A DNA stretch of 38,954 bases, taken from Escherichia phage P762. Positions 10,153 through 26,794 of this stretch are shown here, piece after piece (position 1 is the stretch's first letter; each line of letters starts with the position of its first letter). A program made the position numbers and the translations under genes. The stretch lies in sequence record MW876471. One strand, given 5' to 3'. Under the pieces are notes generated by a model that made no database searches, was not told where the DNA came from, and saw only the letters and a program-made list of their open reading frames with translations.

Positions 10153-10163
10153 TCGTCACCTCC

Positions 10164-10809: not shown

Positions 10810-10813
10810 TGTC

Positions 10814-11038
10814 TTACCCCATGTTGACGCCAGAGGCTCGCATAGCGCGACTCACTGACGATTTATCTTTAGGTGTAGACTCCTTCTTGACCTTCAGGTC
10901 TTTGATACCTTTGGTCTCGTTGGTGTCCACATCCGATTCAGCCCCGATGTCAACTGACGCAACTTCCTCACTCAGAGGTGCTGGTTCAGGTGCTTGGACC
11001 GAAGGCTTCGGAGTGCTAATCTTTGGACTGAAACACAT
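10814..11038 (-). CDS. gp6.7: gp6.7 small virion protein
   Basis: 74-aa ORF beginning MCFSPKI..PEPAPL as T7 gp6.7. Confidence 0.8.
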   Translation of the reverse strand: MCFSPKISTPKPSVQAPEPAPLSEEVASVDIGAESDVDTNETKGIKDLKVKKESTPKDKSSVSRAMRASGVNMG

Positions 11039-11052
11039 AGTCCCTCCTACAG

Positions 11053-11325
11053 TTAATCGAACTGAACGGTATCTTTCAGCTCACGACGCATAGCAACCGC
11101 AGAGTCGAGAGTGTCAGAACAATACTGGAGACCCTTGATGAACCCGGCAATGAACGCATCGCTGTAGCCCTGCTGCTTGAGGAGACTGATAGCTCCCATC
11201 TTCTCAGCGTAGCTTGCGTTGAACAATACGTGCAGGAACTGGATGGCAGACTGGGAGATGTTCGGGACATCAAGTCTTTCTTCCTGTAACTGCTTAACAA
11301 CGTTTTCAATAGCATTAATAGCCAT
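11053..11325 (-). CDS. gp6.5: gp6.5
   Basis: 90-aa ORF downstream of the phi6.5-position promoter; MAI.AIE..VK and NASYAE blocks resemble T7 gp6.5. Confidence 0.7.
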   Translation of the reverse strand: MAINAIENVVKQLQEERLDVPNISQSAIQFLHVLFNASYAEKMGAISLLKQQGYSDAFIAGFIKGLQYCSDTLDSAVAMRRELKDTVQFD

Positions 11326-11386
11326 CTTGAATCTCCTCTTTAAGTTAAGACTAAAGTCTATCTTATAGTCATATCTTAGGTCCTAA

Positions 11387-11409
11387 AGTCCCTATAGTGA
11401 TAGTTTAGT
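11387..11409 (-). promoter_or_regulatory. phage RNAP promoter (phi6.5 position)
   Basis: plus-strand gtccctatagtgatagtttag. Confidence 0.8.
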
Positions 11410-11535
11410 GTTTCACCTATGGATGACTGTTGGATTGATAGGATATGACTATCGGTTAGACTCAGTGTTTAGGGCGGTTGTTCGACCCGAACCACTTGTA
11501 CATGCAGTAAAGGGCCAGAAGTCCGGCCCAGTAAA

Positions 11536-12402
11536 TTACATGGATGGTGTCCACAGGATGACCTCCTTGGACTTAGGGTCGTAGTCGGAGGCTCGACAAA
11601 TACGAGCGACCTGAGCTTGGACCAGAAGTTCCTCCTCGGTCATCCCAGCTTTAGCAGCCAGAGTCACCATGCAGTCCCACAGCGTCATGTCTTCACGCTT
11701 CGGATACTTCTTCCACTCAGTCTTAATCTGGCCTTTGTTCTTGCCAGTCTTAAGCTCACGGCTCTCCTGCACGAAGTAGTACGGCTCGTCAAGGAACGCA
11801 CGAGTGGTGTCCTCACCCATCCCCGGAATACCACCGTAGCCATCTGTAGTGTCACCCTTGATGGTCTGCTCCATGTGCCAGTAGTCTGCCTCAGCAGTCG
11901 TATGACTCAGGATTTCACCAGTGGTTAACCAGAAGAACTCACAGTTCGGGATTGTCTTGAAGTCCTTATCACAGGACACAAGAACCGCATGGTCGCATCC
12001 GACAATCTGAGGTCGGGTCCCGATGATACCCATACAGTCATCACCCTCAAGCGTAGGACGCAGGAAGCTGTTGAACCGTGGGTCAGCCATCACTTCGGCT
12101 ACGAACTTCTTGTAACCTACGGGCTTGCGAGAACCTTTACGGTTGGCCTTATAAGTAGGAAGAACGTCCTTACGCCAGTTATTATCGTCAGTAAAGCACA
12201 TCACAATCTTAGCGTCTTTCCACGCCTTACGCTTCTTAATGATTTCAGCGATGGTGTTCTCAAGGATACGACGAGCCTTGGCATGGTCGCATATAAGGGT
12301 CCAGATGTCATCACCCCAGTCTGTCTCGTCCTCGGCAGCAGCCATAGACGAAAACACTAAGTAGTCACCATCCAGAACCAGAGCTATTTTCTTCTCTGAC
12401 AT
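11536..12402 (-). CDS. gp6: 5'-3' exonuclease gp6
   Basis: 288-aa ORF; CDHAKAR, NWRK, YKANRK, DKDFKTIPNC, TIKGD.TDGY, GKNKGQ, LWDC blocks match T7 gene 6 exonuclease. Confidence 0.92.
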   Translation of the reverse strand: MSEKKIALVLDGDYLVFSSMAAAEDETDWGDDIWTLICDHAKARRILENTIAEIIKKRKAWKDAKIVMCFTDDNNWRKDVLPTYKANRKGSRKPVGYKKFVAEVMADPRFNSFLRPTLEGDDCMGIIGTRPQIVGCDHAVLVSCDKDFKTIPNCEFFWLTTGEILSHTTAEADYWHMEQTIKGDTTDGYGGIPGMGEDTTRAFLDEPYYFVQESRELKTGKNKGQIKTEWKKYPKREDMTLWDCMVTLAAKAGMTEEELLVQAQVARICRASDYDPKSKEVILWTPSM

Positions 12403-12620
12403 TATGCCTCCTCAACGATGCAAACTGAAGCGAAGGCACGTACCGTTTCGACTTCCTCGGTCATTCCCTTCCAGCGGATATACGTCTCGTGTTTGATGGC
12501 TACCGTCTTTGGCATTACCCGGACTACTTTGCCTATACACATAGCGTATGACTTACCAGCTAGGCAGAAAGCAACCTTTTGCCCTACCTTAAGTTCTCGG
12601 CCTGATACGTCTTGACTCAT
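12402..12620 (-). CDS. hypothetical small protein in the gene 5.9 position
   Basis: 72-aa reading from internal ATG (MSQDVSGRELKVGQKV...) overlapping gp5.7 stop; does not resemble the acidic T7 gp5.9 as recalled. Confidence 0.55.
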   Translation of the reverse strand: MSQDVSGRELKVGQKVAFCLAGKSYAMCIGKVVRVMPKTVAIKHETYIRWKGMTEEVETVRAFASVCIVEEA

Positions 12621-12835
12621 AGACAGCCTCCGTGTTGGTTCAGGAACTTGGTGCCAGCAACGGTAATCTCCCACGCACCGTTGTTACGCCCGTCCATAGA
12701 CAGGCAGCTTAGATGTCCACGACTCGCAGCCTCAGCCACAAGTGCAGCGTTGTTGCGCACATAGTTGGACTGAAAGGTCTTCGGGCAGGACTTAAGGGCC
12801 GCTAGGACCCGTAAGTATTCACTCATCGTTCGCAC
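12617..12835 (-). CDS. gp5.7: gp5.7-like protein
   Basis: SCPKTFQSNYVRNNAALVAEAASRGHLSCL...GAWEIT block matches T7 gp5.7. Confidence 0.8.
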   Translation of the reverse strand: MRTMSEYLRVLAALKSCPKTFQSNYVRNNAALVAEAASRGHLSCLSMDGRNNGAWEITVAGTKFLNQHGGCL

Positions 12836-13113
12836 TCCACCCGGAAGTTGCCAAATCTCGGCTGGTTAGAGTAGGTGCTCAGGTCTTCTTTCAGACCGTC
12901 GACGATGGCTTTCTTGAGGACAAGTTCGACTACAGCTTCCAGACCTTCAGTCACGCCAACCTCTACCATCTTACGCTCAAAACCAGTGGTCTTCTCTCCG
13001 TTGAGGACCTTACGGCTCAGCTCGCAAAGGTCCTTCTTGCAGTAATCCACTTCTTCAGTGGACAGCACAACACCTAGCGAGAACGAAACTCGCATACGTT
13101 TGGTCATAGCCAT
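12823..13113 (-). CDS. gp5.5: gp5.5-like protein (H-NS-binding family)
   Basis: starts MAMTKRMRVSF as T7 gp5.5 (MAMTKKFKVSF); ATG overlaps DNA polymerase stop (TAATG). Confidence 0.8.
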   Translation of the reverse strand: MAMTKRMRVSFSLGVVLSTEEVDYCKKDLCELSRKVLNGEKTTGFERKMVEVGVTEGLEAVVELVLKKAIVDGLKEDLSTYSNQPRFGNFRVECER

Positions 13114-15284
13114 TAGTGACACTCCTTCCACGTTGGTCCAATCTTACCTTCGGTATCAAGGACACATTTAAAGTTATAGAACTCACCCACCTTACGCATA
13201 GCAAGTTGAGCAATCTTGACGACTTCTTCGGCAATCTCCTGAGTACGACACGCAATCTGCAATTCGTCATGCACCCAAGCCATGTACGCAAAGTCACCTT
13301 CCCAGCCGTGAACATACCCGGCCTCTTCAAGCATACGTTCAGTCTCGACAATCCAGTGCTTACAGACTACCGCACCATCGCCTTGAAGTAAGGCGTTCAG
13401 TGCTGAGTGCGGCGACCGGATGTGGATACGGCGACCATCAAGTCCACGTAACCAACGGCGTTTCCACTTGACGATGTTCTCTCCATCCACCCACTTAGAG
13501 TCTGAGATTAACGTATTACTCACAGCTTCCCTTAGGTCTTTGATGGCTGGTGTACCCTCAATGAATTTCTTCATGAGAGCTGACCCTTCCTTCTTACCAC
13601 CGCCTACTATCAGTCCAATCTTAGCTGCCCCTGCACCATACAGGAACGCATAGATGAACGTCTTAGCGTTGTTACGGAAAGCATCATGGTCGTGGTTCGA
13701 CTTATCGCGGGGGACGTTAGGTGCTAACCCAGCGTTTACTGCGTTGGCCCAGTGGATGTCACCTTCGACCACAGTCTTCGCATAGGCACCACCATCAAAC
13801 GGAGCCGCTCGGTTCCCCAGACAACGAAGCTCAAGACCTGAGGCATCCACACCCACTTGAATCCAAGGGTCTGGCTTACCATCCGTCTTGTTCCAAGCTG
13901 CACCGAAAGCACCACGGCAAATCTCGCCATATGGAGCACCGTTAGCCGGGACTTGAGCCATGTTTGGTGAACTATGGGTCGCACGTCCGGTTACTGCACC
14001 GCATGGGTTGATTGAACCGTGCATACGTCCGTCTGGACCTACAAGTTTCAACCATGCGTTCTTACCTTCAGCCGCCTGACCGATTCGCTTCTGGACTACC
14101 AGATACTCACGAACCAGCTCTACGCAAGCCTGAGCCTCTGCGTCTGGCAACTTAACGTGTTCTAACGTCTCGTCATCGACTACAGGTTTCCCGGTGTCAG
14201 TGAAGTCCACAGGCTCCCAGCCACGCTCCATCAATACTTTCGCTAAGTGGTCTCCGCTTCCCGGATTAAACTCAACGTAAGTGATAGGTGTGAACGGTGC
14301 TCCCTCCATCGTGTCTCGTGAGTCGAACTCGCAAGGCTCCAGACCTAAGCGTTGAGCTTTGTTCTTCGGCTTCTTAAAGATGCCACCGACCTTAGGATAC
14401 ACGACTCGCGGATACTTCGGAAGGTCCTTGCCTGTCCGTGGGTGCTTGAAGAACTCCTTGCCTCCATTTGGTGCGTACCAGCTACCGAAAGTCGAACGCA
14501 GCTTGTCCAGCAGCTCTGCACGTTTGACGGTGAGTTCACGATATAAGCCTTCGACCATCTCGGTGTTCATCGGATAGCCGTTACGTTCCATCTTCGCACA
14601 GGTCCACGCAGCATCATGTTCCAGACGCAACGCATAAATCTGGTCGAAAGCGAACTGTTCAGACTGGAAGTAATACTTGTCATTCAGGAACTTCTTGAAC
14701 AACGCCAGTGTGACCACAACGTCTTGAACGTTATAGTCCAGCATCTCCTGAGACGGGAACAACCATTCGTCCCCAGCCTTATATTCGATACCTTCAGCCT
14801 TGCACTTGGCAACGTAATCGTGTTTGTACTCACCTTTCATCTCACCGAGACGATAACCCCAAGCCTCAAGAGACTGACGTCCCATCATAATAGGTGGCAG
14901 ACGACCAGCTTTCACTGCGCCCATGTCTGAGAACTTAATGTTTGGATACATCAAGCGGCCCAGCACCAAGGTATCAATCATCTTGTGTTTCGGGAAGTTA
15001 AAGCGTTTCCCAAAGTACAGACGCTTCAGCTTGTCAATAGCCGGGACGTCATAGTTGATACCGTTGTGGAATACCAGAATACCATCAGGTGATGCGGCAA
15101 TCTCTTCCACCTTCTGCACATACTCTTTGAAGCCGCCGACGATACCGACCATCGGAGCTACCCCATACTTAAGGGTCTCATTCGACTCGGCGTTAATCAG
15201 GACCCCACAGTGAAACTGGGAGACTGTATCAAGGAGACCGTTGGTCTCGATGTCAGAACCCCAGATACTCTTAAGGTCAAACAT
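13113..15284 (-). CDS. gp5: DNA polymerase gp5
   Basis: long blocks identical to T7 gp5 (HNGxxYDVPA, LEAWGYRLGEMKGEYK, YNVQDVVVT, KYPRxxxPKVGGIFKKPKNKAQR, GAVTGRATH, AKTFIYxFLYGAG, YMAWVHDE); start set at internal ATG MFDLKSIWGSDIETN with GGAGGA SD, not the track start at 15320. Confidence 0.97.
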   Translation of the reverse strand: MFDLKSIWGSDIETNGLLDTVSQFHCGVLINAESNETLKYGVAPMVGIVGGFKEYVQKVEEIAASPDGILVFHNGINYDVPAIDKLKRLYFGKRFNFPKHKMIDTLVLGRLMYPNIKFSDMGAVKAGRLPPIMMGRQSLEAWGYRLGEMKGEYKHDYVAKCKAEGIEYKAGDEWLFPSQEMLDYNVQDVVVTLALFKKFLNDKYYFQSEQFAFDQIYALRLEHDAAWTCAKMERNGYPMNTEMVEGLYRELTVKRAELLDKLRSTFGSWYAPNGGKEFFKHPRTGKDLPKYPRVVYPKVGGIFKKPKNKAQRLGLEPCEFDSRDTMEGAPFTPITYVEFNPGSGDHLAKVLMERGWEPVDFTDTGKPVVDDETLEHVKLPDAEAQACVELVREYLVVQKRIGQAAEGKNAWLKLVGPDGRMHGSINPCGAVTGRATHSSPNMAQVPANGAPYGEICRGAFGAAWNKTDGKPDPWIQVGVDASGLELRCLGNRAAPFDGGAYAKTVVEGDIHWANAVNAGLAPNVPRDKSNHDHDAFRNNAKTFIYAFLYGAGAAKIGLIVGGGKKEGSALMKKFIEGTPAIKDLREAVSNTLISDSKWVDGENIVKWKRRWLRGLDGRRIHIRSPHSALNALLQGDGAVVCKHWIVETERMLEEAGYVHGWEGDFAYMAWVHDELQIACRTQEIAEEVVKIAQLAMRKVGEFYNFKCVLDTEGKIGPTWKECH

Positions 15285-15304
15285 GGTTAATCCTCCGTTT
15301 AGTC

Positions 15305-15345
15305 TAATCATAAAGGCCACTCGATGTGAATGACCTTGAGTCTAG
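15305..15345 (-). promoter_or_regulatory. conserved hairpin, candidate RNase III site (R4.7 position)
   Basis: RNA CUAGACUCAAGGUCAU-loop-GUGGCCUUUAUGAUUAG; 8-bp stem AAGGUCAU/GUGGCCUU; same motif at 22301..22345 and 31831..31872. Confidence 0.5.
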
Positions 15346-15347
15346 AC

Positions 15348-15509
15348 CTAGAAGTCTGTACGCAAGAAGTGATACATAAACTTCCGGTTAGCTTTCTTCC
15401 ATGCCTTAGAGTCGAACCTTTGGTCTCCCAGAATGTTGGACAGGCAGGTTGCTTCATCGCTCCACCATTTGTACATGAACCGATGGTAGCGAGCTTTAAG
15501 TTTTCTTAG
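15348..15509 (-). CDS. small basic protein between genes 4 and 5
   Basis: TTG start with GGAGG SD right after the gp4 stop (about 54 aa, [16 protein letters not shown]...); start and reality uncertain. Confidence 0.35.
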
Positions 15510-15523
15510 CAATGTACTCCTCC

Positions 15524-17227
<1,704 letters not shown>

Positions 17228-17404
17228 TCACTCCTTAGTAAACTTTAGGTGATACAGAATGGCGTATTCCTCCATAATAGCAAGTACAGCAGCGCGTTGA
17301 TTAGCATCAGGTACTTCCCGCTTTAGTCTCTCTTTGAGTTTAGACCTTCGGTTCTTCCCAGTATTACCAACGTAATACCTCATGTGTCTTGGCACACCAT
17401 CCAT
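17228..17404 (-). CDS. hypothetical small protein upstream of gene 4
   Basis: 58-aa ORF (MDGVPRHMRYYVGNTGKNRRSK...) between a variant promoter and gp4; below the track cut-off. Confidence 0.45.
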   Translation of the reverse strand: MDGVPRHMRYYVGNTGKNRRSKLKERLKREVPDANQRAAVLAIMEEYAILYHLKFTKE

Positions 17405-17454
17405 TGGTCACTCCTTAATTACGAATGCGAACAAAGGGACAGGACTCATGGTCC

Positions 17455-17477
17455 CATCCCTAAGGTGATAGTTTAGG
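17455..17477 (-). promoter_or_regulatory. variant phage-promoter-like sequence
   Basis: plus-strand atccctaaggtgatagtttag: consensus with two changes in the TATA element (ctaaggtg vs ctatagtg); flanked by a GGGAC...GTCCC inverted repeat. Confidence 0.4.
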
Positions 17478-17688
17478 CTTTGAAGAACTGAGCCAACTGG
17501 TCAGCTTTGGTGTCAGCTTGACGTGCCTTCATGCCAGCTTCCAGTGACGCGATGGTCAGTTTGTCAGCCAGAGCAGCAGCATCAGCCGCACCGTCAGCAG
17601 TCTTCGCTGCTACCTTTCGTTCCATAACCGCAGCACGACGATAACCACGCACCACCAGACGACCAAGAAATTCGATAAGTTTAATCAT
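17473..17688 (-). CDS. hypothetical small Ala-rich helical protein
   Basis: 71-aa ORF between lysozyme and primase genes. Confidence 0.55.
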   Translation of the reverse strand: MIKLIEFLGRLVVRGYRRAAVMERKVAAKTADGAADAAALADKLTIASLEAGMKARQADTKADQLAQFFKA

Positions 17689-17711
17689 TTAGTGTTCTCC
17701 TTTAGAGTTTA

Positions 17712-18170
17712 TTAACCACGGTCGGAAGTGACCAGTTCATTGGTAGATAGCCAGCGTTGCAAGTCGAAACTTGGACACGCCTTAGGTGCTACGTCATGGT
17801 GTGCTTTGATTTCTGCCTGAGGATACAGGACCTTCAGGTCAGCCAGCTTGTTGCGCAGGGAGTTCATCTGGGCTGGAGTGAAGTTAGCTTCAAACTGACC
17901 CTTAGCGTTGATTCCACCTACAAGGCAGACGCCTACGGACTTGGAGTTCCAGTCCTTAACGTGTGACCCTACGACATTGACCGGGCGACCCTCTTCCACA
18001 GTGCCATCGCGCTTGATGATAAAGTGGTAGCCTACGTCCAGCCAGCCTTGCTGCTTGTGCCACATACGGATGGTCTCTACCCCAATGTCCATCTCTGGCT
18101 TGGTAGCCGAACAGTGAACGAAGATAGCGTCAGTACGTGACCGTGGGTTGAACTGAACCTTACTTACCAT
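17712..18170 (-). CDS. gp3.5: lysozyme / N-acetylmuramoyl-L-alanine amidase gp3.5 (also RNAP inhibitor in T7)
   Basis: 152 aa; DAIFVHCSAT, WLDVGYHFIIKRDGTVE, VGVCLVGGI, ANFTPAQM, AHHDVAPKACPSFDL, NELVTSDRG blocks identical to T7 lysozyme. Confidence 0.97.
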   Translation of the reverse strand: MVSKVQFNPRSRTDAIFVHCSATKPEMDIGVETIRMWHKQQGWLDVGYHFIIKRDGTVEEGRPVNVVGSHVKDWNSKSVGVCLVGGINAKGQFEANFTPAQMNSLRNKLADLKVLYPQAEIKAHHDVAPKACPSFDLQRWLSTNELVTSDRG

Positions 18171-18630
18171 TGTACACCACCAGCTCTACTACGACCAGAT
18201 TCAGATGTGACTGGAAGCGCTGTGCGTCAGTCGTGTGCATCTGGAGCAACTTGTGGTTGAAGACGTGAGAGTTGCTAATCTTCACGTACACTTCGTCAGG
18301 CTTACCGTGGACGATGAACGTCTGGCCTACACCAATCTTGTTGATGGTCAGGACTTCACGTTTAACGGTGACAGGAGGGACGCTTGAGGCTGGCAGGACT
18401 TGAGGTTTATCCTCTACGATTTCCTCAAGATGTCCTTTTAAAACCCACGCCCCCCACATACCGTCAGGCTGAGTGTCATAACCTGCTGCTCCGTGTTTGT
18501 AGGCTCCACGCTCAGTGGATTCCACCAGAACAAGTCCAGGTGATGGTGCAGGGTCTTTCGCACATTTCGTAACGATAGTACCTTTAGGCCACCCGTAGCC
18601 ACTAACCTTAAGTCTATATTTCTTGCTCAT
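18160..18630 (-). CDS. hypothetical protein (156 aa) inserted between endonuclease I and lysozyme
   Basis: AAGGAG SD; ATG overlaps gp3 stop (TAATG), end overlaps gp3.5 start; no T7 counterpart at this position. Confidence 0.75.
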   Translation of the reverse strand: MSKKYRLKVSGYGWPKGTIVTKCAKDPAPSPGLVLVESTERGAYKHGAAGYDTQPDGMWGAWVLKGHLEEIVEDKPQVLPASSVPPVTVKREVLTINKIGVGQTFIVHGKPDEVYVKISNSHVFNHKLLQMHTTDAQRFQSHLNLVVVELVVYNGK

Positions 18631-19082
18631 TACTTAACTCCTTTCTTCTTGGGAATGAGTATGCCTGAAGGCAGACGTACAGTCGCCTCTCGCAGCCACT
18701 CAACCGGGATGAACTTGTCGGCAAACTTAAAGCCGTTCTTTTCGCACCATGCGCCATACGTGGTCGGAGACCCTTTGTATAACTTTGAGCGGGAACTTGA
18801 GAACACGAACCGGATGTCTAACTCTGGGTGCTGTTCTCGTACCAGAAGGTGCTTCTTACGGTCATCACTATCGAAGATACCTTTGGTCTCTACGATGATA
18901 CCGTTAGGAAGGATAAAATCTGGTGTGTACTTGTGGTCGGAAGCCGGAATCACATAGTTGATATAATGGCTTTCGTACTCCGCTTTGACGCCGTTCTGTT
19001 CCAGCCACTGCTGGTTCTTGGCTTCAAGTCCAGAGCGGTAGGCACCCACAGAGTGCCCCCGTTTTGCAGACCATTGGGCCAT
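18630..19082 (-). CDS. gp3: endonuclease I (Holliday junction resolvase) gp3
   Basis: 150 aa; YVIPAS, YTPDF.LPNGI.VETKG, SDDRKKHLL.REQHPELDIR.VFSSSR.KLYKGSPT.YG, KFADK.IP blocks match T7 gp3. Confidence 0.95.
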   Translation of the reverse strand: MAQWSAKRGHSVGAYRSGLEAKNQQWLEQNGVKAEYESHYINYVIPASDHKYTPDFILPNGIIVETKGIFDSDDRKKHLLVREQHPELDIRFVFSSSRSKLYKGSPTTYGAWCEKNGFKFADKFIPVEWLREATVRLPSGILIPKKKGVK

Positions 19083-19780
19083 TAGAAGTCGTAATCGCCA
19101 CCAGAGTTGGAGTCGTCACCACCTTCGGAATCATCGTCACCGAAGTCATCGTCACCGAAGTCACCATCGGTTGACGCTTTGTAGCCCGTACCGAGGTCTT
19201 CATCATCACCCCAGCCACCATCTCCACCAGCACCATCACCTTTCCATTCCTTCAGTTCTACCAGAAGGCAGGACTCAAGCTGGAGCTTAACGCTTGCACC
19301 AGTCGCAGCGTTCCACTTGAACGGCAGGACTTTAAACTTGACCTTCAGTTTGGAGCCAGCGCCAATATTCGGGACGTCACGGATTAACTTAGCATCGGTG
19401 TCGTAGAACCGTAATACGATAGGCTCAGATTTACCATCCTTCAGGTAAGACGCGAAGCATTTAAACTTCAGGGTAACAGTACCGTCACCATTCTCAATCC
19501 ACGGCATGTCGCCTTCTCGTGGTTCAATAGGCTTCTTGCCACGCTGAACCTGAGGTGGGTTCTTCTCGTGGTCTGCGAGTGCTTTCGCATACGCATCGTC
19601 GTGAATCTTCTGTAAGACATCAATCATCTTACGGACCTTCGGGTTGCTCAGGTCGAATGTCAGGTTGACTTTGTGTTCACCACGCTCGTTGAACTTGGTG
19701 TCTGCTTTGTTCAGCCATGCGTAAGGCTCAACGATACCAGCTACCGGAGTGGTGAAAGTCTTCAGTTGCTCTTTAGCCAT
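19082..19780 (-). CDS. gp2.5: single-stranded DNA-binding protein gp2.5
   Basis: 232 aa as T7 gp2.5; RGKKP..P.EGDMP, NGDGT.T.KFKC.AS, GASVKLQLES..LVEL, acidic C-terminal tail ending DF. Confidence 0.95.
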   Translation of the reverse strand: MAKEQLKTFTTPVAGIVEPYAWLNKADTKFNERGEHKVNLTFDLSNPKVRKMIDVLQKIHDDAYAKALADHEKNPPQVQRGKKPIEPREGDMPWIENGDGTVTLKFKCFASYLKDGKSEPIVLRFYDTDAKLIRDVPNIGAGSKLKVKFKVLPFKWNAATGASVKLQLESCLLVELKEWKGDGAGGDGGWGDDEDLGTGYKASTDGDFGDDDFGDDDSEGGDDSNSGGDYDF

Positions 19781-19819
19781 CGGTGTAAATCTCCTATTTT
19801 AAAGTTACGAACTGGACGT

Positions 19820-19842
19820 CTGTCCTACAGTGATAGTTTAGG
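19820..19842 (-). promoter_or_regulatory. phage RNAP promoter (phi2.5 position)
   Basis: plus-strand tgtcctacagtgatagtttag (one change, ctacag for ctatag). Confidence 0.65.
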
Positions 19843-19995
19843 TCTCAGGACGAATCCGACCGACCACAAAACCAGCGTCCTCATACTCTTGGGACTTCAG
19901 GGTAGCCTCTTCAAGAGACTTTGCGTACACCGGAACCTCGAAGGACTGAACGCGACCCTCAAGCTCCACGATGTATTTCTTTTCTTCAAGGCTCA
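19838..19995 (-). CDS. gp2: gp2-like host RNA polymerase inhibitor
   Basis: 52 aa from internal ATG with GGAAGGAG SD; [14 protein letters not shown]...GFVVGRIRP resembles T7 gp2 (SFEVPIYAETLDEA...GFEVTRVRP). Confidence 0.8.
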
Positions 19996-20074
19996 TAGAC
20001 CTTTCTCCTTCCACATATGGTACATGGACAGGTAGTCCACATTCCCGGTTGAGACCCACTGTCTAAAGCACCAG

Positions 20075-20410
20075 CTACTTGGAGTCATAGCACTTGCCTT
20101 TATGCAGGTCGAACAGCTCCTGATAGAAAGCTGCTTTGTTCAGGTCCTTCTCCATAGTCGCCAGCTCTGACTTCTTACCAGCTCGGAGTCGATACTTCAG
20201 GACGTTACCCATGCAGAAACCACGGAACTCACTGACAGTCATGGACCGGGCGATAATCTCAATGGATTCCACACCGTCAAAGACCTGATAGTGGGACGGC
20301 TTGCGTACACCATCGTCTTCGCTGCCCTTCCGCAGTACACTAGGCACTGCACCACAGTCACAAGACCCGAAGCTCAGGACCGAGCGGCACCACTCCTTGT
20401 GTTTAGTCAT
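20075..20410 (-). CDS. gene 1.7-position protein, possibly DUF3310-like
   Basis: 111 aa with KPSHY...NVLKYRLRAGKK motif; shorter than T7 gp1.7 (196 aa). Confidence 0.6.
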   Translation of the reverse strand: MTKHKEWCRSVLSFGSCDCGAVPSVLRKGSEDDGVRKPSHYQVFDGVESIEIIARSMTVSEFRGFCMGNVLKYRLRAGKKSELATMEKDLNKAAFYQELFDLHKGKCYDSK

Positions 20411-20663
20411 TGAATACCTCCTTCACGAACTCAACGAACAGACGAACGCGAGGCCACTTGGTGTAGACCACAGGTACGTTGGTCTCGTGCTTCTGTCGAG
20501 CCTCTTCAGCTTTGCCAGGAGTAATGAGGGCGAAGACAGTAGGTGACAGCTTAACGGCCTTCCCGAAGTAGCCCAGCTTCTCGTTGCGCTTAATGCAAGC
20601 GAACGGGTTGTGAGACAGGTGGAATGTACTGGTATAACGGTTGAACATTAAGTTCTTAAACAT
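20403..20663 (-). CDS. gene 1.6-position protein
   Basis: 86-aa ORF downstream of a phage promoter, size as T7 gp1.6 (88 aa). Confidence 0.6.
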   Translation of the reverse strand: MFKNLMFNRYTSTFHLSHNPFACIKRNEKLGYFGKAVKLSPTVFALITPGKAEEARQKHETNVPVVYTKWPRVRLFVEFVKEVFND

Positions 20664-20691
20664 GGTCGGCCTCCTTAGGTCGAAGTTATGG

Positions 20692-20714
20692 TTGTCCTAT
20701 AGTGATAGCTTAGG
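20692..20714 (-). promoter_or_regulatory. phage RNAP promoter (phi1.5/1.6 position)
   Basis: plus-strand ttgtcctatagtgatagcttag. Confidence 0.75.
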
Positions 20715-20749
20715 GTCATGCTGGTGGCACAGACGATAGCTTTCAGCAC

Positions 20750-20786
20750 AAGCAAAGAAACCCAGCAGTCCGAAGACCACTGGGTT
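20750..20786 (-). terminator. rho-independent terminator after the ligase gene (TE-like early terminator)
   Basis: minus-strand CCCAGTGGTC-TTCG-GACTGCTGGG hairpin followed by TTTCTTTGCTTG; same position as T7 TE after gene 1.3. Confidence 0.65.
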
Positions 20787-20795
20787 GACATTTAG

Positions 20796-21836
20796 TTAAC
20801 TCTTAACGGTTGGATTGTCTTCCGTCCCGCGCCAGCACTTGAAGCTAGGGTGACGAAGGGAACCATCAGGGAAGCGCTCCATGAATAGGACCTCACACTG
20901 CCATCCTTCATAGGCGTGGTTGTCACCGTTTAGCTCCTGAGTCTTAACAGCTAGTGTGAACTCGTCCTTCTGTTCTTCAGTCAGACCGCAGGCGTTAACC
21001 ACCATGCCATCCTCAAGCAGAACCTCGAAGCCGATGACCTTACCTTCGTTAGCCTTACCCGGAGCCCCCCACACGAGGCCACACACTGTCCCGTCGATGG
21101 TCTCCTCAGGCTTCATCTTCCACATGCCTGACTTCTTGCCACGCTTGTATTTACCAAGTGGGTCCTTGACTACCAGACCCTCATGTCCTTCCAGACGCTT
21201 CTGTTCGTACAGGGAGTTGAGCGACTCAAGGTCATAGACCGTGTGTGACTCAGACAGAACCCAGTCGATTTCCGGGAAGTATTTCTGGAGGAGGGGGACG
21301 ATAGCTTCTGCCTTCAGGCGTGTGACGCTATGGATAGGACCTTCGGCTTTCGGGTCTGCTATGGTTGTCATGTCGATGACACCGTAAACCACAACCTGAA
21401 GTCGTGACCGGGCGACCCAGAACTGGACCTTCTTGCCACGGCCCGGATAGCATTCAGCGAACTCCTCGTTGTTAGGCTTCAGCCACTTCGTTCGGATGAG
21501 ACCTGAGGAGGTGTTGAAGTCTACACCTTTGACCATGACCTCGCCATCAATCATTAGGCCGATACCTTCATAGCCAGCTTGACGAAGGAACCACCGCCAG
21601 TCAGCCTGAGTCCACGCATTGCCCAACTCAGAGTTCATCCACTCAAGTGCTGGCAGTGGTTTAGACTCACGGCTTAACCAATAAGTCTCACCCTCTCGCA
21701 GCACCGGAAGGTTCAACCGCACACCGTCATACTTCACTTCAGCTTCCAGCGACCCGGCTGCTGCCAGTGCTTTCGTAACGCCAGACTCAGAGTAATCTAC
21801 AGCGCGGTGCGGGTTGGTCTTGAGAGTAGTAGTCAT
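20796..21836 (-). CDS. gp1.3: ATP-dependent DNA ligase gp1.3
   Basis: 346 aa; catalytic-lysine motif KYDGVR, MVKGVDFNTSSGLIRTKW, QKRLEGHEGLVVKDP, YKRGKKSGMWKMKPE, NEGKVIGFEVLLE, PDGSLRHPSF, RGTEDNP blocks match T7 ligase. Confidence 0.97.
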   Translation of the reverse strand: MTTTLKTNPHRAVDYSESGVTKALAAAGSLEAEVKYDGVRLNLPVLREGETYWLSRESKPLPALEWMNSELGNAWTQADWRWFLRQAGYEGIGLMIDGEVMVKGVDFNTSSGLIRTKWLKPNNEEFAECYPGRGKKVQFWVARSRLQVVVYGVIDMTTIADPKAEGPIHSVTRLKAEAIVPLLQKYFPEIDWVLSESHTVYDLESLNSLYEQKRLEGHEGLVVKDPLGKYKRGKKSGMWKMKPEETIDGTVCGLVWGAPGKANEGKVIGFEVLLEDGMVVNACGLTEEQKDEFTLAVKTQELNGDNHAYEGWQCEVLFMERFPDGSLRHPSFKCWRGTEDNPTVKS

Positions 21837-22087
21837 TATTTCCAGCTCCTATAGTCATGTAGTTGCCGCAAGCACCATTGCTCACAGCTAAAGATTTCAT
21901 CTTCGGTAAATTCGCGGGAGACCAGAATCCTCCAACCGTCTGCTTCAATGATGTGGACCAGCGTTGTGCGTGAGCGCGGCAGTTCATCCATTCGGACCTC
22001 AAGTCCCGCCTCACTCATCTCGCGGTGAGTCCGTCCTAACGCTGACCACTGGCTCGGGGATGCATCAAATAACCAACGTTTACTCAT
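21836..22087 (-). CDS. gp1.2-position protein (dGTPase-inhibitor family in T7)
   Basis: 83 aa vs 85 aa in T7, same position; only weak similarity (ends ..YRSWK vs ..LKDWK). Confidence 0.6.
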   Translation of the reverse strand: MSKRWLFDASPSQWSALGRTHREMSEAGLEVRMDELPRSRTTLVHIIEADGWRILVSREFTEDEIFSCEQWCLRQLHDYRSWK

Positions 22088-22090
22088 GGC

Positions 22091-22270
22091 TTACACTCCT
22101 ACGAAGTATTTCTCTTGGTTGACCAGAGAGTCTTTACCCTCAGCGTTTCGGAAAGCGCCCTTGACACCACCGCCACGCTTGGTCTTGTTCAGCTTGCGTC
22201 CCTTCGGAATGTAATCTTCAGTCTGCTGACGTTCACGAATGCGCTCGAAGTTGATAGTGTTCTGATACAT
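22091..22270 (-). CDS. gp1.1: gp1.1-like small basic protein
   Basis: 59-aa ORF (below track cut-off) with KGRKLNKTKR block identical to T7 gp1.1. Confidence 0.65.
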   Translation of the reverse strand: MYQNTINFERIRERQQTEDYIPKGRKLNKTKRGGGVKGAFRNAEGKDSLVNQEKYFVGV

Positions 22271-22300
22271 GTGGTAGCTCCAGTTGTTTAGGTTATAGGG

Positions 22301-22345
22301 TTAATCATGAAGGCCACGACTTTGAGTCATGACCTTGAGTCTAAT
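22301..22345 (-). promoter_or_regulatory. conserved hairpin, candidate RNase III site (R1.1 position)
   Basis: RNA UUAGACUCAAGGUCAUGA-loop-GUGGCCUUCAUGAUUAA; same stem as the 15305 and 31831 sites. Confidence 0.5.
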
Positions 22346-22364
22346 CCTATAGTGATAGTTTAGG
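22342..22364 (-). promoter_or_regulatory. phage RNAP promoter (phi1.1 position)
   Basis: plus-strand aatcctatagtgatagtttag. Confidence 0.75.
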
Positions 22365-22826
22365 GTATAACCGTTGTCTGTTGCGGAAGACTTGGTTTAT
22401 ACGTTCCTGTTCAGCCTCCTCACCATAGACCTTAACCAGCTCGTAGTCATACTGGATGCGACCGTCGATGTCGCTAAGTCGATACTCAAAGTCTTTCTGA
22501 GACCCGTCTACGTGGTGCTGGTGGATGGTCAGTGTGCGTTCAGTCTTCGAGATGGTGAAGTGCTTAACGTTCTTCCCGCAGCTACCCGGCCCGGTCTTGA
22601 ACTCAGTCGGTTGGTATAGACCGTTGAACAGTGCCCAGAACTTGATGCCAACCATACGCTTGACAGTTACAGCCGGTGGTGGCGTTAGGCGCTTACGCTC
22701 TGATTCAGCAAGTTTAACCTTCAGTCTCTCGTTGTCTTTATCCCGTACCGTTACGACTCGCTCCAAGTATGCCACCTTCATGTTCAACTCTTTGATTTGC
22801 GCTTTAAGTTTTGACTTACCGAACAT
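22347..22826 (-). CDS. hypothetical protein (159 aa), N-terminal coiled coil plus beta-rich C-terminal domain
   Basis: ORF with GAGG SD between RNAP and gene 1.1; no T7 counterpart. Confidence 0.7.
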   Translation of the reverse strand: MFGKSKLKAQIKELNMKVAYLERVVTVRDKDNERLKVKLAESERKRLTPPPAVTVKRMVGIKFWALFNGLYQPTEFKTGPGSCGKNVKHFTISKTERTLTIHQHHVDGSQKDFEYRLSDIDGRIQYDYELVKVYGEEAEQERINQVFRNRQRLYPKLSL

Positions 22827-22904
22827 AGGGTTAACCTCTTCTGCGTTGGATTAAAGTGAATACTGCGAGTGCTCCCAGCCACAGGGCCAGTAACTGTAGG
22901 TATG

Positions 22905-23120
22905 TCATTTGGTCTGCTCCAGCTTGGACACTACGTCTTTCAGGTATTTCTCGTGGCTGGATTCCACAAGATAGACGAGGGTCTTGAATGGGACGTTAAG
23001 CTGTTTTGACATCTCGGTAGGAATGACCGTGGTCTTCACCAGACCCTTGCCGTTATGTTCTGTTACAGTCACGATTTGAGTCCCGCCATTAACGCCAGCC
23101 TGCTTGTGTGCAAATTTCAT
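22905..23120 (-). CDS. hypothetical protein (71 aa) immediately after the RNAP gene
   Basis: AGGAG SD 8 nt upstream of the ATG, just after the RNAP stop. Confidence 0.6.
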   Translation of the reverse strand: MKFAHKQAGVNGGTQIVTVTEHNGKGLVKTTVIPTEMSKQLNVPFKTLVYLVESSHEKYLKDVVSKLEQTK

Positions 23121-23132
23121 AACTCTCTCCTG

Positions 23133-25814
23133 TTAAGCGAATGCAAAGTCTGAAGACAAGATGTCTTCGATATTCAGTTTACCTTTCTTCGGAAGCTCAG
23201 GCAACTTGTCGCGCTGGCTTTCATGAAGCTGGTATTCAAACTGCTCGTAGAAGTCAAGCAGCACATCGTTGTCGCGGTAGGTCTCGACCATTGTCTCACG
23301 GACGCCACGGAACAGATACTCAGCGTCAGCCGGGATGGTCCCGAAGCTATCGTGAATCACTGCGAATGACATCACACCATACTTGTGGTGCGTGTGGACT
23401 ACAGTCTTGCGGAGGTGGCTACCATCTTGTGAGTGGACGAAGTTCGGGCTAATGCCTGACTCCTGCTTGTGCTTGTCCAGCTCTTTCTTCGTGCCTTTGT
23501 TGACTGTAGGCTGAAGGTTGAATGACCCTAAGAACATCAGGTTCAGACGAGTGGTATCCTTCTTGCGGTACTCCTGCCAGACAGGGAAACCATCAGGTGT
23601 GACCCAGTGTACCGGAAGGCAAGGCTTCAGGATTTCTCCAGTCTTCTTGTCTTTCACTTCAGCAGCCAGCAGCTTGGCAGCACCTTGAAGCCACTTCATC
23701 GCGTCAACCGCAGCAACTACGGTCACACTCACAGCTTCCCAAATCATCTTAGCCATGAAGCGGGACGCTTGGCTTGGTTCAGTGAACATAGCGCCAGACC
23801 CTGAGTCAATCGCTGGCATAACGATATCCTCGTAAACTTGGTCTGCGAATCCATACTCTTTCGACCCGTAGGCTAGAGTCATGACCGAACGCTTAGTGAC
23901 CTTGCGTGACATACCGTATGTCAGCCACTGACGGGCCAGCTCTCGTGTTCCCAGCTTGAGACGCTCGGTAATCTCACCAGTCTTCTTGTCCTCGTGAGTC
24001 ACCATCTCGTTGTCCGTACCGTTAACCAGCAGGACTTTAAGCTCCTCCTCAATGCGGTCAGACACAATGCGGTAGATGTCTTGGACCTTACCGGATGGCG
24101 TCAGGTTTACTGCATGTCCACCGATGTGGTCACGAAGCATCGCGCTGAAGTGCTGAATACCAGAGCAGGACCCATCGAACGCTATCGGTAGCGAGCAGGA
24201 GTAAGACAGGCCGTGGTGCATTACGCCAGCATACTCGAAGCAGAACGCGAGGAAACAGAACGGAGAGTCTAACTTGCCCCACCACTCAATACTATCCATC
24301 GGTGCCTTAGCAGTAGCCATAATGTTGTCGTGGTTGTCTTCCACCCACTTGATGCGCTCCTCGAAGGTGACTTTATCGACACCCGCACAGTTTGCACCAT
24401 GGACCTTCAGCCATTTGAAACCATCAGCGCCAATAGGCTTGCCGACTGCCAGAGTCAGGAGACCCTTCTGCATGTCGTTACCTTGAGGGTTAAACATCGG
24501 GACAGCGTAGACACGACCTCGCCAATCCATGTTGTATGGGAACCAGATAGCCTTGAACTGAGAGAACTTGTTCGCTTGGTTAACGATAAAGCTCAGTGAC
24601 AATCTTCGTGACTGTCTGGCCTTCTCGCGGCGATAGATACCAGCAGCAGCTTTCTTCCATGCCTTGAGTTCTTCTTCAGTCTCACCCGCATAATCCTCAG
24701 GCTTCAGTGGTTCCATCTGAGGGATGTCATCAATAGGCGTGTTGTTCAGCTTCTCGACCATGTTCACCACGTCCAGCACCTTCTTGTTCACTTTCCAAGG
24801 CGTATTCTGGATGATGTTAACAGCGTCATAGACTTCAGGCATGTACACGTCTTCGTAACGTGCTACCGCAGACTTAGACCCTAAGCGAATCAGTGGTAAT
24901 GGTCTGCGACCTTTGGCCCAGTACCCACCGCCTACGACACCCGTCCACGGCTTAGGTGGAACGACGCAAGGCTGATAGACCGGTGCAATACCCGCAAGAC
25001 TGAATCCACGTTGTGCCATCTTCTTGACCCAGAAGTCTGACAGGTGGACCATCTCAACGTCAGCCGCTGCATTACCAGCACCGTAACGCTTAAGCTCGAC
25101 CAGTTGTGTAGACTGGATGACAATCTCAAGCATCTTGATGCCAACGTGTACCGCTTCTGTCGGACTCCAAGTTCCCCACGCATCTTCCAGTTGTCCTTGC
25201 TCAAGCATGGATGTCTCAACAGCTTGCATGTAGGCTTTCTTGTAGGATACCCCTGCTCGCTTGTTCAGGTTCTCAGCTATCGCCTTCTTGAAGTGCTCCT
25301 GCTCCTTGTCACGGATGCGACCGAAGCGTATTTCATCCTCAAGTGTGCGACCTATCGCTGAGGCCATAGGTGTAATCGGTATCCCTTCAGGCTTGACCAG
25401 CTTGGATAGGATGACCTTTAGTATGATGACCGCAGCAGACTCGCAAGAGATACGCAGAGAGCGGTCCTTGACGGCCTTCTCTTCAGTGCTCAACATGGTG
25501 AACGCTACGCTTGGACGAGAGGTTGACATCTTCCCGTCTGGACCTTCGTGCCACTCCTTGACGGCTTGCGCAATCTTAGGGACCAGAGTCTGCATCAAAG
25601 GCTTGGCTACCTGATTGTCTGCCAGTTCCCCGCGCTCGGTCTGTCGCTCAAGGTTCTTGATGAAACGTCGCTCGCCTTCAGTGTATGCCTCGTGCTCAAG
25701 CTGAAGCTGTTTGACTGCAAGGTCTTGCCCGTAGTGGTCAGCCAGCAGGTTAAACGGCTCAATGGCGTTCGACACATCAGAGAAGTCGTGTTTGTCAATA
25801 GAGATGACGCTCAT
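23133..25814 (-). CDS. gp1: single-subunit DNA-directed RNA polymerase gp1
   Basis: 893 aa; collinear with T7 RNAP over the whole length (VPPKPWTG, WFPYNMDWRGRVYA, AFCFEYAGV, DGSCSGIQHFSAMLRD, TLAYGSKE, HDSFGT, C-terminal FAFA). Confidence 0.98.
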   Translation of the reverse strand: MSVISIDKHDFSDVSNAIEPFNLLADHYGQDLAVKQLQLEHEAYTEGERRFIKNLERQTERGELADNQVAKPLMQTLVPKIAQAVKEWHEGPDGKMSTSRPSVAFTMLSTEEKAVKDRSLRISCESAAVIILKVILSKLVKPEGIPITPMASAIGRTLEDEIRFGRIRDKEQEHFKKAIAENLNKRAGVSYKKAYMQAVETSMLEQGQLEDAWGTWSPTEAVHVGIKMLEIVIQSTQLVELKRYGAGNAAADVEMVHLSDFWVKKMAQRGFSLAGIAPVYQPCVVPPKPWTGVVGGGYWAKGRRPLPLIRLGSKSAVARYEDVYMPEVYDAVNIIQNTPWKVNKKVLDVVNMVEKLNNTPIDDIPQMEPLKPEDYAGETEEELKAWKKAAAGIYRREKARQSRRLSLSFIVNQANKFSQFKAIWFPYNMDWRGRVYAVPMFNPQGNDMQKGLLTLAVGKPIGADGFKWLKVHGANCAGVDKVTFEERIKWVEDNHDNIMATAKAPMDSIEWWGKLDSPFCFLAFCFEYAGVMHHGLSYSCSLPIAFDGSCSGIQHFSAMLRDHIGGHAVNLTPSGKVQDIYRIVSDRIEEELKVLLVNGTDNEMVTHEDKKTGEITERLKLGTRELARQWLTYGMSRKVTKRSVMTLAYGSKEYGFADQVYEDIVMPAIDSGSGAMFTEPSQASRFMAKMIWEAVSVTVVAAVDAMKWLQGAAKLLAAEVKDKKTGEILKPCLPVHWVTPDGFPVWQEYRKKDTTRLNLMFLGSFNLQPTVNKGTKKELDKHKQESGISPNFVHSQDGSHLRKTVVHTHHKYGVMSFAVIHDSFGTIPADAEYLFRGVRETMVETYRDNDVLLDFYEQFEYQLHESQRDKLPELPKKGKLNIEDILSSDFAFA

Positions 25815-25883
25815 ACTTAAAGTCCTTGTTATTAGTCTTTCACTTAAAGTCTCTTTGGTCTTTCACTTGGAGTCTTAGACCTT

Positions 25884-25906
25884 TAGTCCTATAGTGATAG
25901 TTAAGT
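25884..25906 (-). promoter_or_regulatory. phage RNAP promoter directly upstream of the RNAP gene
   Basis: plus-strand agtcctatagtgatagttaag about 75 nt upstream of the gene 1 ATG. Confidence 0.6.
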
Positions 25907-25911
25907 CAGAA

Positions 25912-26793: not shown

Positions 26794-26794
26794 G

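What the first reader, a model, noticed from the sequence alone, without database searches (positions are those of the whole stretch)
18160..18630. 156-aa gene inserted between endonuclease I and lysozyme
Genes 3 and 3.5 are adjacent in T7. Here a 156-aa ORF with strong SD is wedged between them, translationally coupled on both sides (TAATG at its start, overlap with gp3.5 at its end). It shows no motif I recognise. Genes in this middle (DNA metabolism) block of T7-like phages are often host-takeover or anti-defence factors.
Basis: partly seen in the sequence, partly recalled or inferred. Interest (0 to 1): 0.65.

Follow-up and report, generated by a model that had tools for sequence, protein, structure and literature searches.

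The report
Modular gene 3.2 of K1F-like phages
The 156-aa ORF is real, but it is the already annotated, never characterised "gene 3.2" of K1F-like (Kayfunavirus) phages: a small basic protein with a near-invariant C-terminal barrel domain and an exchangeable, fast-evolving N-terminal barrel domain, which makes it a reasonable but unproven candidate host-interaction or anti-defence factor.

Summary
A 156-aa ORF (18160..18630, minus strand) lies between endonuclease I and the amidase/lysozyme, with a strong SD, TAATG coupling upstream and an 11-nt overlap downstream.

It is not an insertion peculiar to this phage. The window is a Kayfunavirus, and the ORF is gene 3.2 of K1F and EcoDS1 (phrog_16385). 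About 219 deposited phages carry it at this locus, always as "hypothetical".

- **C-terminal barrel (aa 87-156):** almost invariant (omega about 0.1), with the motif Y..KISNSHVFN..QMHTT..RF.
- **N-terminal barrel (aa 1-72):** a divergence hotspot. DNA identity is 59-75% against 90-96% in the flanks, and omega is about 0.85 between close relatives. Other phages replace it with at least six unrelated domains, delete it, or add a third domain.

My best reading is a non-enzymatic binder: a conserved docking module plus a host-specific recognition module, used for host takeover or counter-defence. Confidence is about 0.4.

Positive selection was not formally shown (hypervariable sites omega about 1.1), and no partner is known. 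This is a known uncharacterised family, of moderate interest.

The parts
18160..18630 (-). Gene 3.2 CDS (156 aa plus TAA stop at 18160..18162)
   Evidence: ORF list and sequence. phrog_16385 matches full length at E 2.9e-93. It is 94% identical to metagenomic proteins and 75% to EcoDS1 gp3.2. The type-A N-domain matches K1F gp3.2 at 58%.
18638..18644 (-). Shine-Dalgarno AAAGGAG, inside the last codons of gene 3, 7 nt upstream of the ATG; TAATG stop/start junction at 18628..18632
   Evidence: Sequence. The same AAGAAAGGAG(T/C)TAAG(TG/AA)ATG context is seen in all 17 related loci, whatever the N-domain type.
18415..18630 (-). N-terminal domain, type A (aa 1-72): SH3-like five-stranded small barrel; variable, exchangeable module
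18595..18606 (-). Hypervariable loop, aa 9-12 (between strands 1 and 2)
   Evidence: Eight to ten or more residue types per site in 71 proteins. There are 11-24 nonsynonymous against 2.5-3.3 synonymous changes per site on a 28-sequence tree.
18529..18561 (-). Hypervariable stretch, aa 24-34 (loop between strands 2 and 3), interrupted by conserved D26 and P27
   Evidence: Sites 28, 30, 31 and 33 each show 16-27 nonsynonymous changes, while P27 shows 9 synonymous to 1 nonsynonymous.
18502..18516 (-). Variable positions aa 39-43 (after strand 3); G42 is invariant
   Evidence: site 43: 25 nonsynonymous to 4 synonymous.
18430..18441 (-). Hypervariable hairpin turn, aa 64-67 (strands 4 and 5)
   Evidence: Site 64 shows 22.5 nonsynonymous to 2.5 synonymous, site 66 shows 19.5 to 0.5 (p = 0.06), and site 67 shows 19.5 to 1.5.
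18373..18414 (-). Linker, aa 73-86 (..EDKPQVLPASSVPP), low-confidence or disordered; downstream boundary of the exchangeable cassette and site of in-frame indels
   Evidence: AF2 pLDDT below 50 over aa 75-87. The PQVLPASSVPPVT linker is shared by N-domain types A, B, C and D. Insertions of 3 and 18 nt occur in the EcoDS1-like subgroup.
18163..18372 (-). C-terminal core domain (aa 87-156): near-invariant basic small barrel (pI 9.5); it is the whole protein in the 74-aa short forms (phrog_15211)
18214..18288 (-). Invariant polar motif Y115-x3-S-N-S-H122-x-F-N-x4-Q-M-H132-T-T-x3-R-F139, on the strand 2/3 turn, the strand 3/4 hairpin and the short helix; presumed functional surface
   Evidence: These residues are invariant even in the most distant members, including relatives from Providencia phages at 35-37% identity. 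Secondary structure.
18630..19082 (-). Context: gene 3, endonuclease I (150 aa); its stop overlaps the gene 3.2 start
   Evidence: Distant gp3.2 homologues in Providencia phages also sit directly after endonuclease I.
17712..18170 (-). Context: gene 3.5, amidase/lysozyme (152 aa); its start overlaps the gene 3.2 end by 11 nt

Best explanation
**Shown.** This is gene 3.2 of a K1F-like (Kayfunavirus) phage. It is a translated class II (middle) gene, co-transcribed and translationally coupled with endonuclease I and the amidase. The product is a small basic protein (17 kDa, pI 9.3) made of two SH3-like beta-barrels joined by a flexible linker, with no enzymatic motif.

The C-terminal barrel is the conserved core of the family. 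It is nearly invariant and carries an invariant polar His-containing patch. The N-terminal barrel is an accessory cassette. It sits between a conserved start context and a conserved linker, and it diverges several-fold faster than everything around it. In other phages it is replaced by unrelated domains, deleted, or joined by a third domain.

**Inferred.** The protein acts stoichiometrically as a binder or adaptor. The invariant C-domain would dock onto a conserved partner, either a phage protein or a conserved host machine. The variable N-domain would recognise a polymorphic, host-specific target. The most likely purpose is host takeover or counter-defence in the arms race with enterobacterial hosts. 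The identity of both partners is unknown.
For: - **Gene reality and coupling:**
- **Family membership and synteny:**
- **Fold:** two SH3-like barrels.
- **Narrow, phage-only distribution:** 16 representatives at 50% identity among 1.84 billion proteins.
- **Modular architecture:** at least 6-7 mutually unrelated N-domain types on one C-domain, 74-aa C-only forms, 226-227-aa three-domain forms and in-frame deletion derivatives. hhalign finds no homology between the domain types tested (types A and D and the C-domain).
- **Bounded divergence hotspot:** it starts exactly at the ATG and lasts about 210 nt.
- **Contrast in selection:** N-domain omega is 0.85 between close pairs against 0.17 for the C-domain in the same pairs (Fisher p = 0.0014). 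Tree-based omega is 0.53 against 0.09, with strongly constrained scaffold sites interleaved with sites that change on about 40% of branches. The domain is therefore functional, not decaying.
- **Backbone and cassette phylogenies disagree:** ST31 is the closest backbone but shares only 75% of the N-domain, whereas TH16 shares 88%.
- **Host association:** the type-A N-domain is concentrated in E. coli phages, 38 Escherichia plus 7 Kayfunavirus records of 55, against 1 of about 59 Salmonella phages that carry the C-domain.
Against: - No partner or phenotype is known.
- Omega is never significantly above 1. Pooled hypervariable sites give about 1.1 (summed by hand). The best single sites have p = 0.06. 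The close-pair binomial test gives p = 0.7. Unconstrained surface loops would therefore explain the variability equally well.
- The elevated dS in the N-domain points to old alleles or recombinational import rather than proving selection.
- Most phages of the genus manage with the 74-aa C-domain alone, so the N-domain is dispensable.
- Basic SH3-like barrels are also typical nucleic-acid binders.
- The SH3-like fold of the other N-domain types is only inferred from sequence patterns.
Confidence: 0.4

Rival explanations
1. Nucleic-acid-binding accessory factor of phage DNA metabolism or recombination, for example a modulator or partner of endonuclease I. The basic C-terminal barrel would bind DNA, RNA or junctions, as Sso7d, KOW, Tudor and integrase-CTD barrels do.
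Against: The N-domain types range from pI 4.7 to 8.7, so they share no nucleic-acid-binding character. T7 is understood to run endonuclease I without such a partner (my own knowledge). This model explains neither the hypervariability nor the cassette exchange. No nucleic-acid-binding family matched by sequence.
Confidence: 0.2
2. Only the C-domain is functional, in an unknown housekeeping role. The N-domain would be a nearly neutral, dispensable appendage whose variability reflects relaxed constraint and recombination, not an arms race.
For: Omega is about 0.85 between close relatives and about 1.1 at the hypervariable sites, neither distinguishable from neutrality. Loss is frequent: the 74-aa forms dominate the genus. 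In-frame deletions (P0124, P0139, P0140), frameshifted or truncated forms (P0123, P0132, P0133, P0135) and a truncated TH20 copy all occur.
Against: The scaffold residues of the N-domain are invariant or strongly constrained across all type-A sequences (W14, T18-T21, C23, D26-P27, L35-V36, G42, Y44-G47, G50, G57-W62). AF2 folds it with pLDDT about 93. Intact N-domains of several unrelated types, and a three-domain form, are maintained at the same site, which suggests repeated gain and retention.
Confidence: 0.2
3. Lysis-related accessory of the amidase gp3.5. It would be a separately encoded SH3b-like cell-wall-binding module, a catalytically dead NlpC/P60-like remnant, or a regulator of the gp3.5-RNA polymerase interaction.
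Against: No SH3b, NlpC/P60 or CHAP family matches by sequence even at E = 10. The 74-aa forms contain no cysteine, so no papain-like nucleophile is possible. In Providencia phages the homologue is separated from the amidase. Peptidoglycan is too conserved to explain a hypervariable, swappable domain. By inspection of the sequence, the protein has no obvious signal peptide or transmembrane segment.
Confidence: 0.08
4. Not a real gene, or not translated: a chance ORF, or a spacer holding an RNA or regulatory element.
For: None found. No direct expression data exist for this phage.
Against: Evidence of a coding gene comes from the strong SD and coupling, conservation in about 219 phages, in-frame indels and dN/dS of 0.09-0.11 in the C-domain. 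There is also a confident AF2 fold and no Rfam, promoter or terminator signal.
Confidence: 0.02

Closest known systems
gp3.2 of Kayfunavirus phages (K1F AM084414 gene 3.2, EcoDS1 gp3.2, Dev2 gp3.2; phrog_16385 for the full length, phrog_15211 for the C-domain)
   Same: Same family and same locus between genes 3 and 3.5, with the same coupling. Full-length HMM match at E 2.9e-93. It is 75% identical to EcoDS1 gp3.2 overall, and the N-domain is 58% identical to K1F gp3.2.
   Different: This allele has its own N-domain sequence. The nearest deposited phage, TH16, is 88% identical in the N-domain and 93.6% overall. The family has no assigned function, so membership explains nothing mechanistically.
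SH3-like small beta-barrel fold (eukaryotic SH3, KOW, Tudor, FeoA, ribosomal L2 and EF-P barrels)
   Different: There is no sequence relationship to any of these families, and no proline-peptide-binding signature. This is resemblance at fold level only, and the fold is too generic to imply a ligand.
Small non-enzymatic host-takeover and anti-defence proteins of T7-like phages (Gp2, Gp5.7, Ocr/gp0.3, gp1.2, gp4.5, gp5.9)
   Same: It is a small accessory protein encoded among early or middle genes, variable between related phages, and presumed to act by binding rather than catalysis. This is an analogy from established knowledge of T7.
   Different: It is not homologous to any of them. It is basic (pI 9.3), not an acidic DNA mimic like Ocr. 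Its two-module 'constant plus exchangeable' architecture has, to my knowledge, not been described for those proteins. No target is known.
Imm11 immunity-protein family (Pfam PF07791)
   Same: Two family members (P0126 and the Providencia phage PSTCR2 homologue) give weak hits to the same stretch of the Imm11 profile (positions 153-179), over the conserved SNSH..QMHTT motif.
   Different: E-values are 0.08-0.16 and scores about 12 bits, against a cut-off of 22. The window protein itself gives no hit. Only 25 residues of a 194-position profile are covered. I treat this as chance until shown otherwise.

Membership tests
Kayfunavirus gp3.2 (phrog_16385 / phrog_15211) | Full-length sequence match to the family profile | tested here: met
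   phrog_16385 at E 2.9e-93 over residues 1-156 of 157 profile positions; phrog_15211 at E 3.2e-40 over residues 87-156.
Kayfunavirus gp3.2 (phrog_16385 / phrog_15211) | Position between gene 3 (endonuclease I) and gene 3.5 (amidase), overlapping both | tested here: met
   Window. The same arrangement is seen in EcoDS1, K1F and more than 25 other loci.
Kayfunavirus gp3.2 (phrog_16385 / phrog_15211) | Invariant C-domain motif Y..(K/V)(I/M)SNSH.FN..QMHTT..RF | tested here: met
   Present at aa 115-139, and invariant in all aligned members including the most distant.
SH3-like small beta-barrel fold | Five-stranded barrel that superposes on SH3-type domains | tested here: met
SH3-like small beta-barrel fold | The same, for the C-domain | tested here: inconclusive
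Canonical SH3 / bacterial SH3b families (Pfam SH3_1, SH3_3, SH3_5 and others) | Sequence-profile match | tested here: not met
   No Pfam family at E up to 10. No PDB sequence hit with the family profile at E up to 10.
NlpC/P60-CHAP papain-like peptidoglycan hydrolases | Catalytic Cys-His-(His/Asn/Gln) triad and a family profile match | tested here: not met
HNH / beta-beta-alpha-Me nucleases | HNH profile match and the beta-hairpin-helix metal site | tested here: not met
Acidic DNA-mimic anti-restriction proteins (Ocr/ArdA-like) | Strongly acidic protein | tested here: not met
   pI 9.3, net charge about +5 at pH 7.
Known anti-defence protein families | Homology to a characterised anti-defence protein | not testable with these tools
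   No anti-defence HMM library is available here; PADLOC covers defence proteins and gave nothing. Literature searches found no study of gp3.2. All BFVD structural neighbours are uncharacterised.
Known anti-defence protein families | Experimental protection of phage from a defence system | not testable with these tools
   Requires wet-lab work.

The most novel reading that the evidence does not exclude
Gene 3.2 would be a previously unrecognised modular counter-defence or host-hijack locus of T7-like phages. A constant SH3-like docking domain would carry exchangeable SH3-like 'warhead' domains. These would be shuffled by recombination between the conserved gene 3 end and the linker, each aimed at a different host-specific immune or takeover target.
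Probability: 0.25. Interest if true: 0.7.

Novelty: new member of a known kind. Interest (0 to 1): 0.4.

Why it matters
T7-like phages are among the best understood viruses, yet this gene is present in about 200 deposited K1F-like phages and has never been studied. Some of those phages are used for therapy and engineering (K1F, LM33_P1, CLB_P1 relatives, BASEL Bas105).

The analysis turns an anonymous ORF into a concrete, testable object with three features:
- a two-module binder whose N-terminal module is a recombination and divergence hotspot;
- defined cassette boundaries;
- a defined invariant surface on the C-module.

If the N-domain determines success on particular hosts, it would be a new host-range or anti-defence determinant, and a natural domain-swap scaffold for phage engineering. 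If not, the gene is one more conserved hypothetical protein, and the finding is ordinary.

Tried and rejected
**Sequence homology.**
- Pfam, NCBIfam and PADLOC at E up to 10, and PDB sequences searched with the family profile, gave nothing.
- The alternative N-domains also gave nothing in Pfam, and only the two gp3.2 PHROGs.
- An exhaustive HMM search of 1.84 billion representatives found only 16 clusters, all gp3.2 variants or fragments. There are no distant relatives to borrow a function from.
- A profile search with the most divergent C-domains added 8 proteins.

**Structure.**
- The first AF2 run failed on the C-domain because the alignment was nearly invariant. A second run with diversified sequences gave pLDDT 80.
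- The afdb50 library was unavailable.

**Common origin of the domains.** hhalign between N-domain type A, type D and the C-domain found no significant homology.

**Positive selection.** Pooled Nei-Gojobori estimates are saturated (dS about 0.9-1), which gives omega 0.28. Close pairs give omega about 0.85, not above 1. A parsimony-based site count on 28 sequences gives only marginal sites (p = 0.06 at sites 11 and 66).

**Ideas rejected.**
- HNH or NlpC/P60 enzyme: no motif and no cysteine.
- DNA mimic: the protein is basic.
- Truncated endonuclease I upstream in phages with the short form: it is a GTG start, not a truncation.
- RNA element, promoter or terminator inside the ORF.

**Related loci.** IMG/VR scans with the three most divergent homologues found nothing.

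**Literature.** No paper in the library discusses gp3.2 function.

Full report
**1. The observation**

The ORF list and the raw sequence show a 156-codon ATG ORF at 18160..18630 on the minus strand.
- It follows the 150-aa endonuclease I gene (18630..19082). The minus-strand junction reads AAAGGAGTTAAGTAATG. This gives a strong SD 7 nt upstream, and the TAA of gene 3 shares its last base with the ATG.
- It ends 11 nt inside the 152-aa amidase/lysozyme gene (17712..18170).

No Rfam family, sigma-70-like promoter or terminator lies inside the ORF.

**2. What the window is, and what the gene is called**

Megablast of 8 kb around the ORF finds about 93% identity to Escherichia phage ST31, and similar values to EcoDS1, Bas105 and other Kayfunavirus (K1F-like Studiervirinae) phages.
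- The protein matches phrog_16385 end to end (E 2.9e-93), and its C-terminal half matches phrog_15211. Both are 'unknown function'.
- tblastn finds the C-terminal half at the same locus in 219 deposited phage records.
- In EcoDS1 and K1F the gene is annotated as gene 3.2 / gp3.2. In Dev2 and SH4 the 74-aa version is also called gp3.2.

So the ORF is 'inserted' only by comparison with T7, where genes 3 and 3.5 abut (my own knowledge). In its own genus it is a standard, long-annotated but unstudied gene. No paper in the searchable library discusses its function.

**3. No homology to anything characterised**

Pfam, NCBIfam and PADLOC at E up to 10 return nothing, and neither does a family profile against all PDB sequences. 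An exhaustive HMM search of 1.84 billion cluster representatives returns only 16 clusters, all of them gp3.2 variants or fragments. The family is thus confined to this small group of T7-like phages.

**4. Architecture**

The alignment of 54 relatives and the 16 representatives reveal a two-module protein.

*C-terminal domain.* Residues 87-156 are almost invariant. A core motif, Y-x3-S-N-S-H-x-F-N-x4-Q-M-H-T-T-x3-R-F, survives even in members only 35-37% identical.

*N-terminal domain.* Residues 1-72 keep an invariant scaffold (GWP.GT.VT.C..DP...LVE...G..KHG..G..QP.GMWGAW). Between the scaffold residues lie positions that carry ten or more different residues among 71 proteins.

*Variants in other phages.* The same start context and the same C-domain carry quite different arrangements:
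- N-domains with no detectable similarity to this one. I count at least six further types (P0125, P0126, P0127/P0131, P0128, P0130, P0136).
- No N-domain at all: the 74-aa forms, which are the majority in the genus.
- Two N-terminal domains: the 226-227-aa forms.
- In-frame deletion remnants.

hhalign finds no homology between type A, type D and the C-domain. The alternative N-domains hit no other Pfam or PHROG family. In the phage collection, type A occurs in 55 records and type D in 27, always next to endonuclease I.

**5. Structure**

- BFVD neighbours are all uncharacterised small phage proteins.
- The protein is basic (pI 9.3; C-domain 9.5), whereas the various N-domain types range from pI 4.7 to 8.7.

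**6. Evolutionary dynamics**

*Divergence hotspot.* Among 13 type-A loci, mean pairwise DNA identity is 90-96% through gene 3. It drops to 59-75% exactly at the gene 3.2 ATG, stays low for about 210 nt, and returns to about 90-95% through the C-domain and gene 3.5.

*Pooled Nei-Gojobori estimates.*

| Region | dN | dS |
|---|---|---|
| N-domain | 0.26 | 0.9 |
| C-domain | 0.04 | 0.37 |
| gp3 | 0.04 | 0.27 |
| gp3.5 | 0.03 | 0.25 |

*Close pairs.* Because dS in the N-domain is saturated, I looked at closely related pairs. In three independent pairs the N-domain has 27 nonsynonymous and 9 synonymous differences (omega 0.85). The C-domain has 11 and 20 (omega 0.17). Fisher's test gives p = 0.0014.

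*Site counts.* A parsimony count on a 28-sequence tree gives omega 0.53 for the N-domain and 0.09 for the C-domain. Strongly constrained scaffold sites alternate with sites that change on about 40% of branches (11, 28, 30, 43, 64, 66, 67). Summing the 15 most variable sites by hand from that table gives omega about 1.1. The best single-site p-values are 0.06. So the N-domain is functional and fast-evolving, but positive selection is not demonstrated.

*Cassette and backbone histories.* They disagree: ST31 is the best backbone match but shares only 75% of the N-domain, whereas TH16 shares 88%.

*Host association.* Type A is concentrated in E. coli phages, whereas Salmonella, Citrobacter and Cronobacter phages mostly carry the short form.

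*Distant homologues.* In two Providencia phages they still sit directly after endonuclease I, but one or two extra ORFs separate them from the amidase.

**7. Interpretation**

What is shown:
- The gene is real and coupled to both neighbours.
- The product is a tandem of small barrels.
- It has one constant module and one exchangeable, rapidly diverging module.

What I infer is that this is a non-enzymatic binder. Its constant domain docks on something conserved, and its variable domain recognises something host-specific. In a T7-like phage that most plausibly means host takeover or counter-defence. I put this at about 0.4. The rivals are:
- a nucleic-acid-binding helper of DNA metabolism or of endonuclease I (0.2);
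- a functional C-domain carrying a nearly neutral, dispensable N-terminal appendage (0.2);
- a lysis or amidase accessory (0.08);
- not a gene (0.02).

**8. Verdict**

The gene is a new allele of a known, uncharacterised family, not a novel insertion. Its modular, hotspot-like evolution is, to my knowledge, undescribed. It makes the gene a sensible target for deletion and domain-swap experiments in K1F or Bas105. Nothing here identifies a mechanism. Interest: 0.4.

Noticed in passing
L003, L008, L010-L015, L017 (about 450 nt upstream of gene 3.2); compare window 18630..19082: In many relatives endonuclease I (gene 3) starts with GTG (VAAWTPKRGHS.. / VAQWSAKRG..). ATG-only gene calling therefore yields a 72-aa 'endonuclease', as annotated in Citrobacter phage SH4. 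The gene is intact, not truncated.
   Followed up: yes
L022 (Escherichia phage vB_EcoP-22664BS1, MZ234009), inside gene 3.5, about 550 nt after the gene 3.2 ATG: A 55-nt insertion found only in this phage interrupts the amidase gene. The record annotates only a 117-aa 'endolysin' from an internal start. This could be a real disruption or an assembly error.
   Followed up: partly
L025 1659-2012; L026 2457-2810 and 2791-3030 (Providencia phages PSTRCR_120 and PSTCR2): One or two extra ORFs of 117 and 79 aa lie between the gp3.2 homologue and the amidase. They have no informative Pfam or PHROG match. The gene 3 to gene 3.5 junction therefore looks like a more general accessory-gene hotspot in Studiervirinae.
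   Followed up: partly
P0095, P0119, P0120, P0121 (metagenomic proteins of 226-227 aa): These three-domain gp3.2 variants have a type-A N-domain, then a type-D-like middle domain (LTVLDLKVGEEYRIHPD...), then the constant C-domain. The modules can therefore be stacked as well as swapped.
   Followed up: partly
P0123, P0132, P0133, P0135 (frameshifted or truncated); P0124, P0139, P0140 (in-frame deletions); L035 (phage TH20, premature stop at codon 102): Several copies have a broken or deleted N-domain or a truncated gene. TH20 is flagged UNVERIFIED in GenBank, so some of these may be sequencing errors and others real losses.
   Followed up: no
P0126 residues 111-137; L026 1998-2456 product, residues 115-139: Two weak, sub-threshold hits (E 0.08 and 0.16) fall on the same stretch of the Pfam Imm11 immunity-protein profile, over the conserved SNSH..QMHTT motif. 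This is probably chance, but it is the only recurring weak hit.
   Followed up: partly
L027 (MT350292, 'Enterococcus phage EFA-1'): This Kayfunavirus genome has a type-A gp3.2 whose N-domain is 85% identical to the window's. It is labelled as infecting Enterococcus faecalis and flagged UNVERIFIED_ORG. The host label is almost certainly wrong.
   Followed up: no
window 1..38954: All the long ORFs, including the T7-like genes checked around the finding, lie on the minus strand, so the window is the reverse complement of the conventional T7 map. The 893-aa ORF at 23133..25814, which by size and position is probably the phage RNA polymerase, lies in the middle of the window. ORFs longer than 500 aa lie on both sides of it. 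The record therefore appears circularly permuted relative to the standard genome start.
   Followed up: no
window 17473..17688 (-) and 17228..17404 (-): Two small ORFs of 71 and 58 aa lie between the amidase and the primase/helicase, in the gp3.7-like position of EcoDS1. They were not examined further.
   Followed up: no
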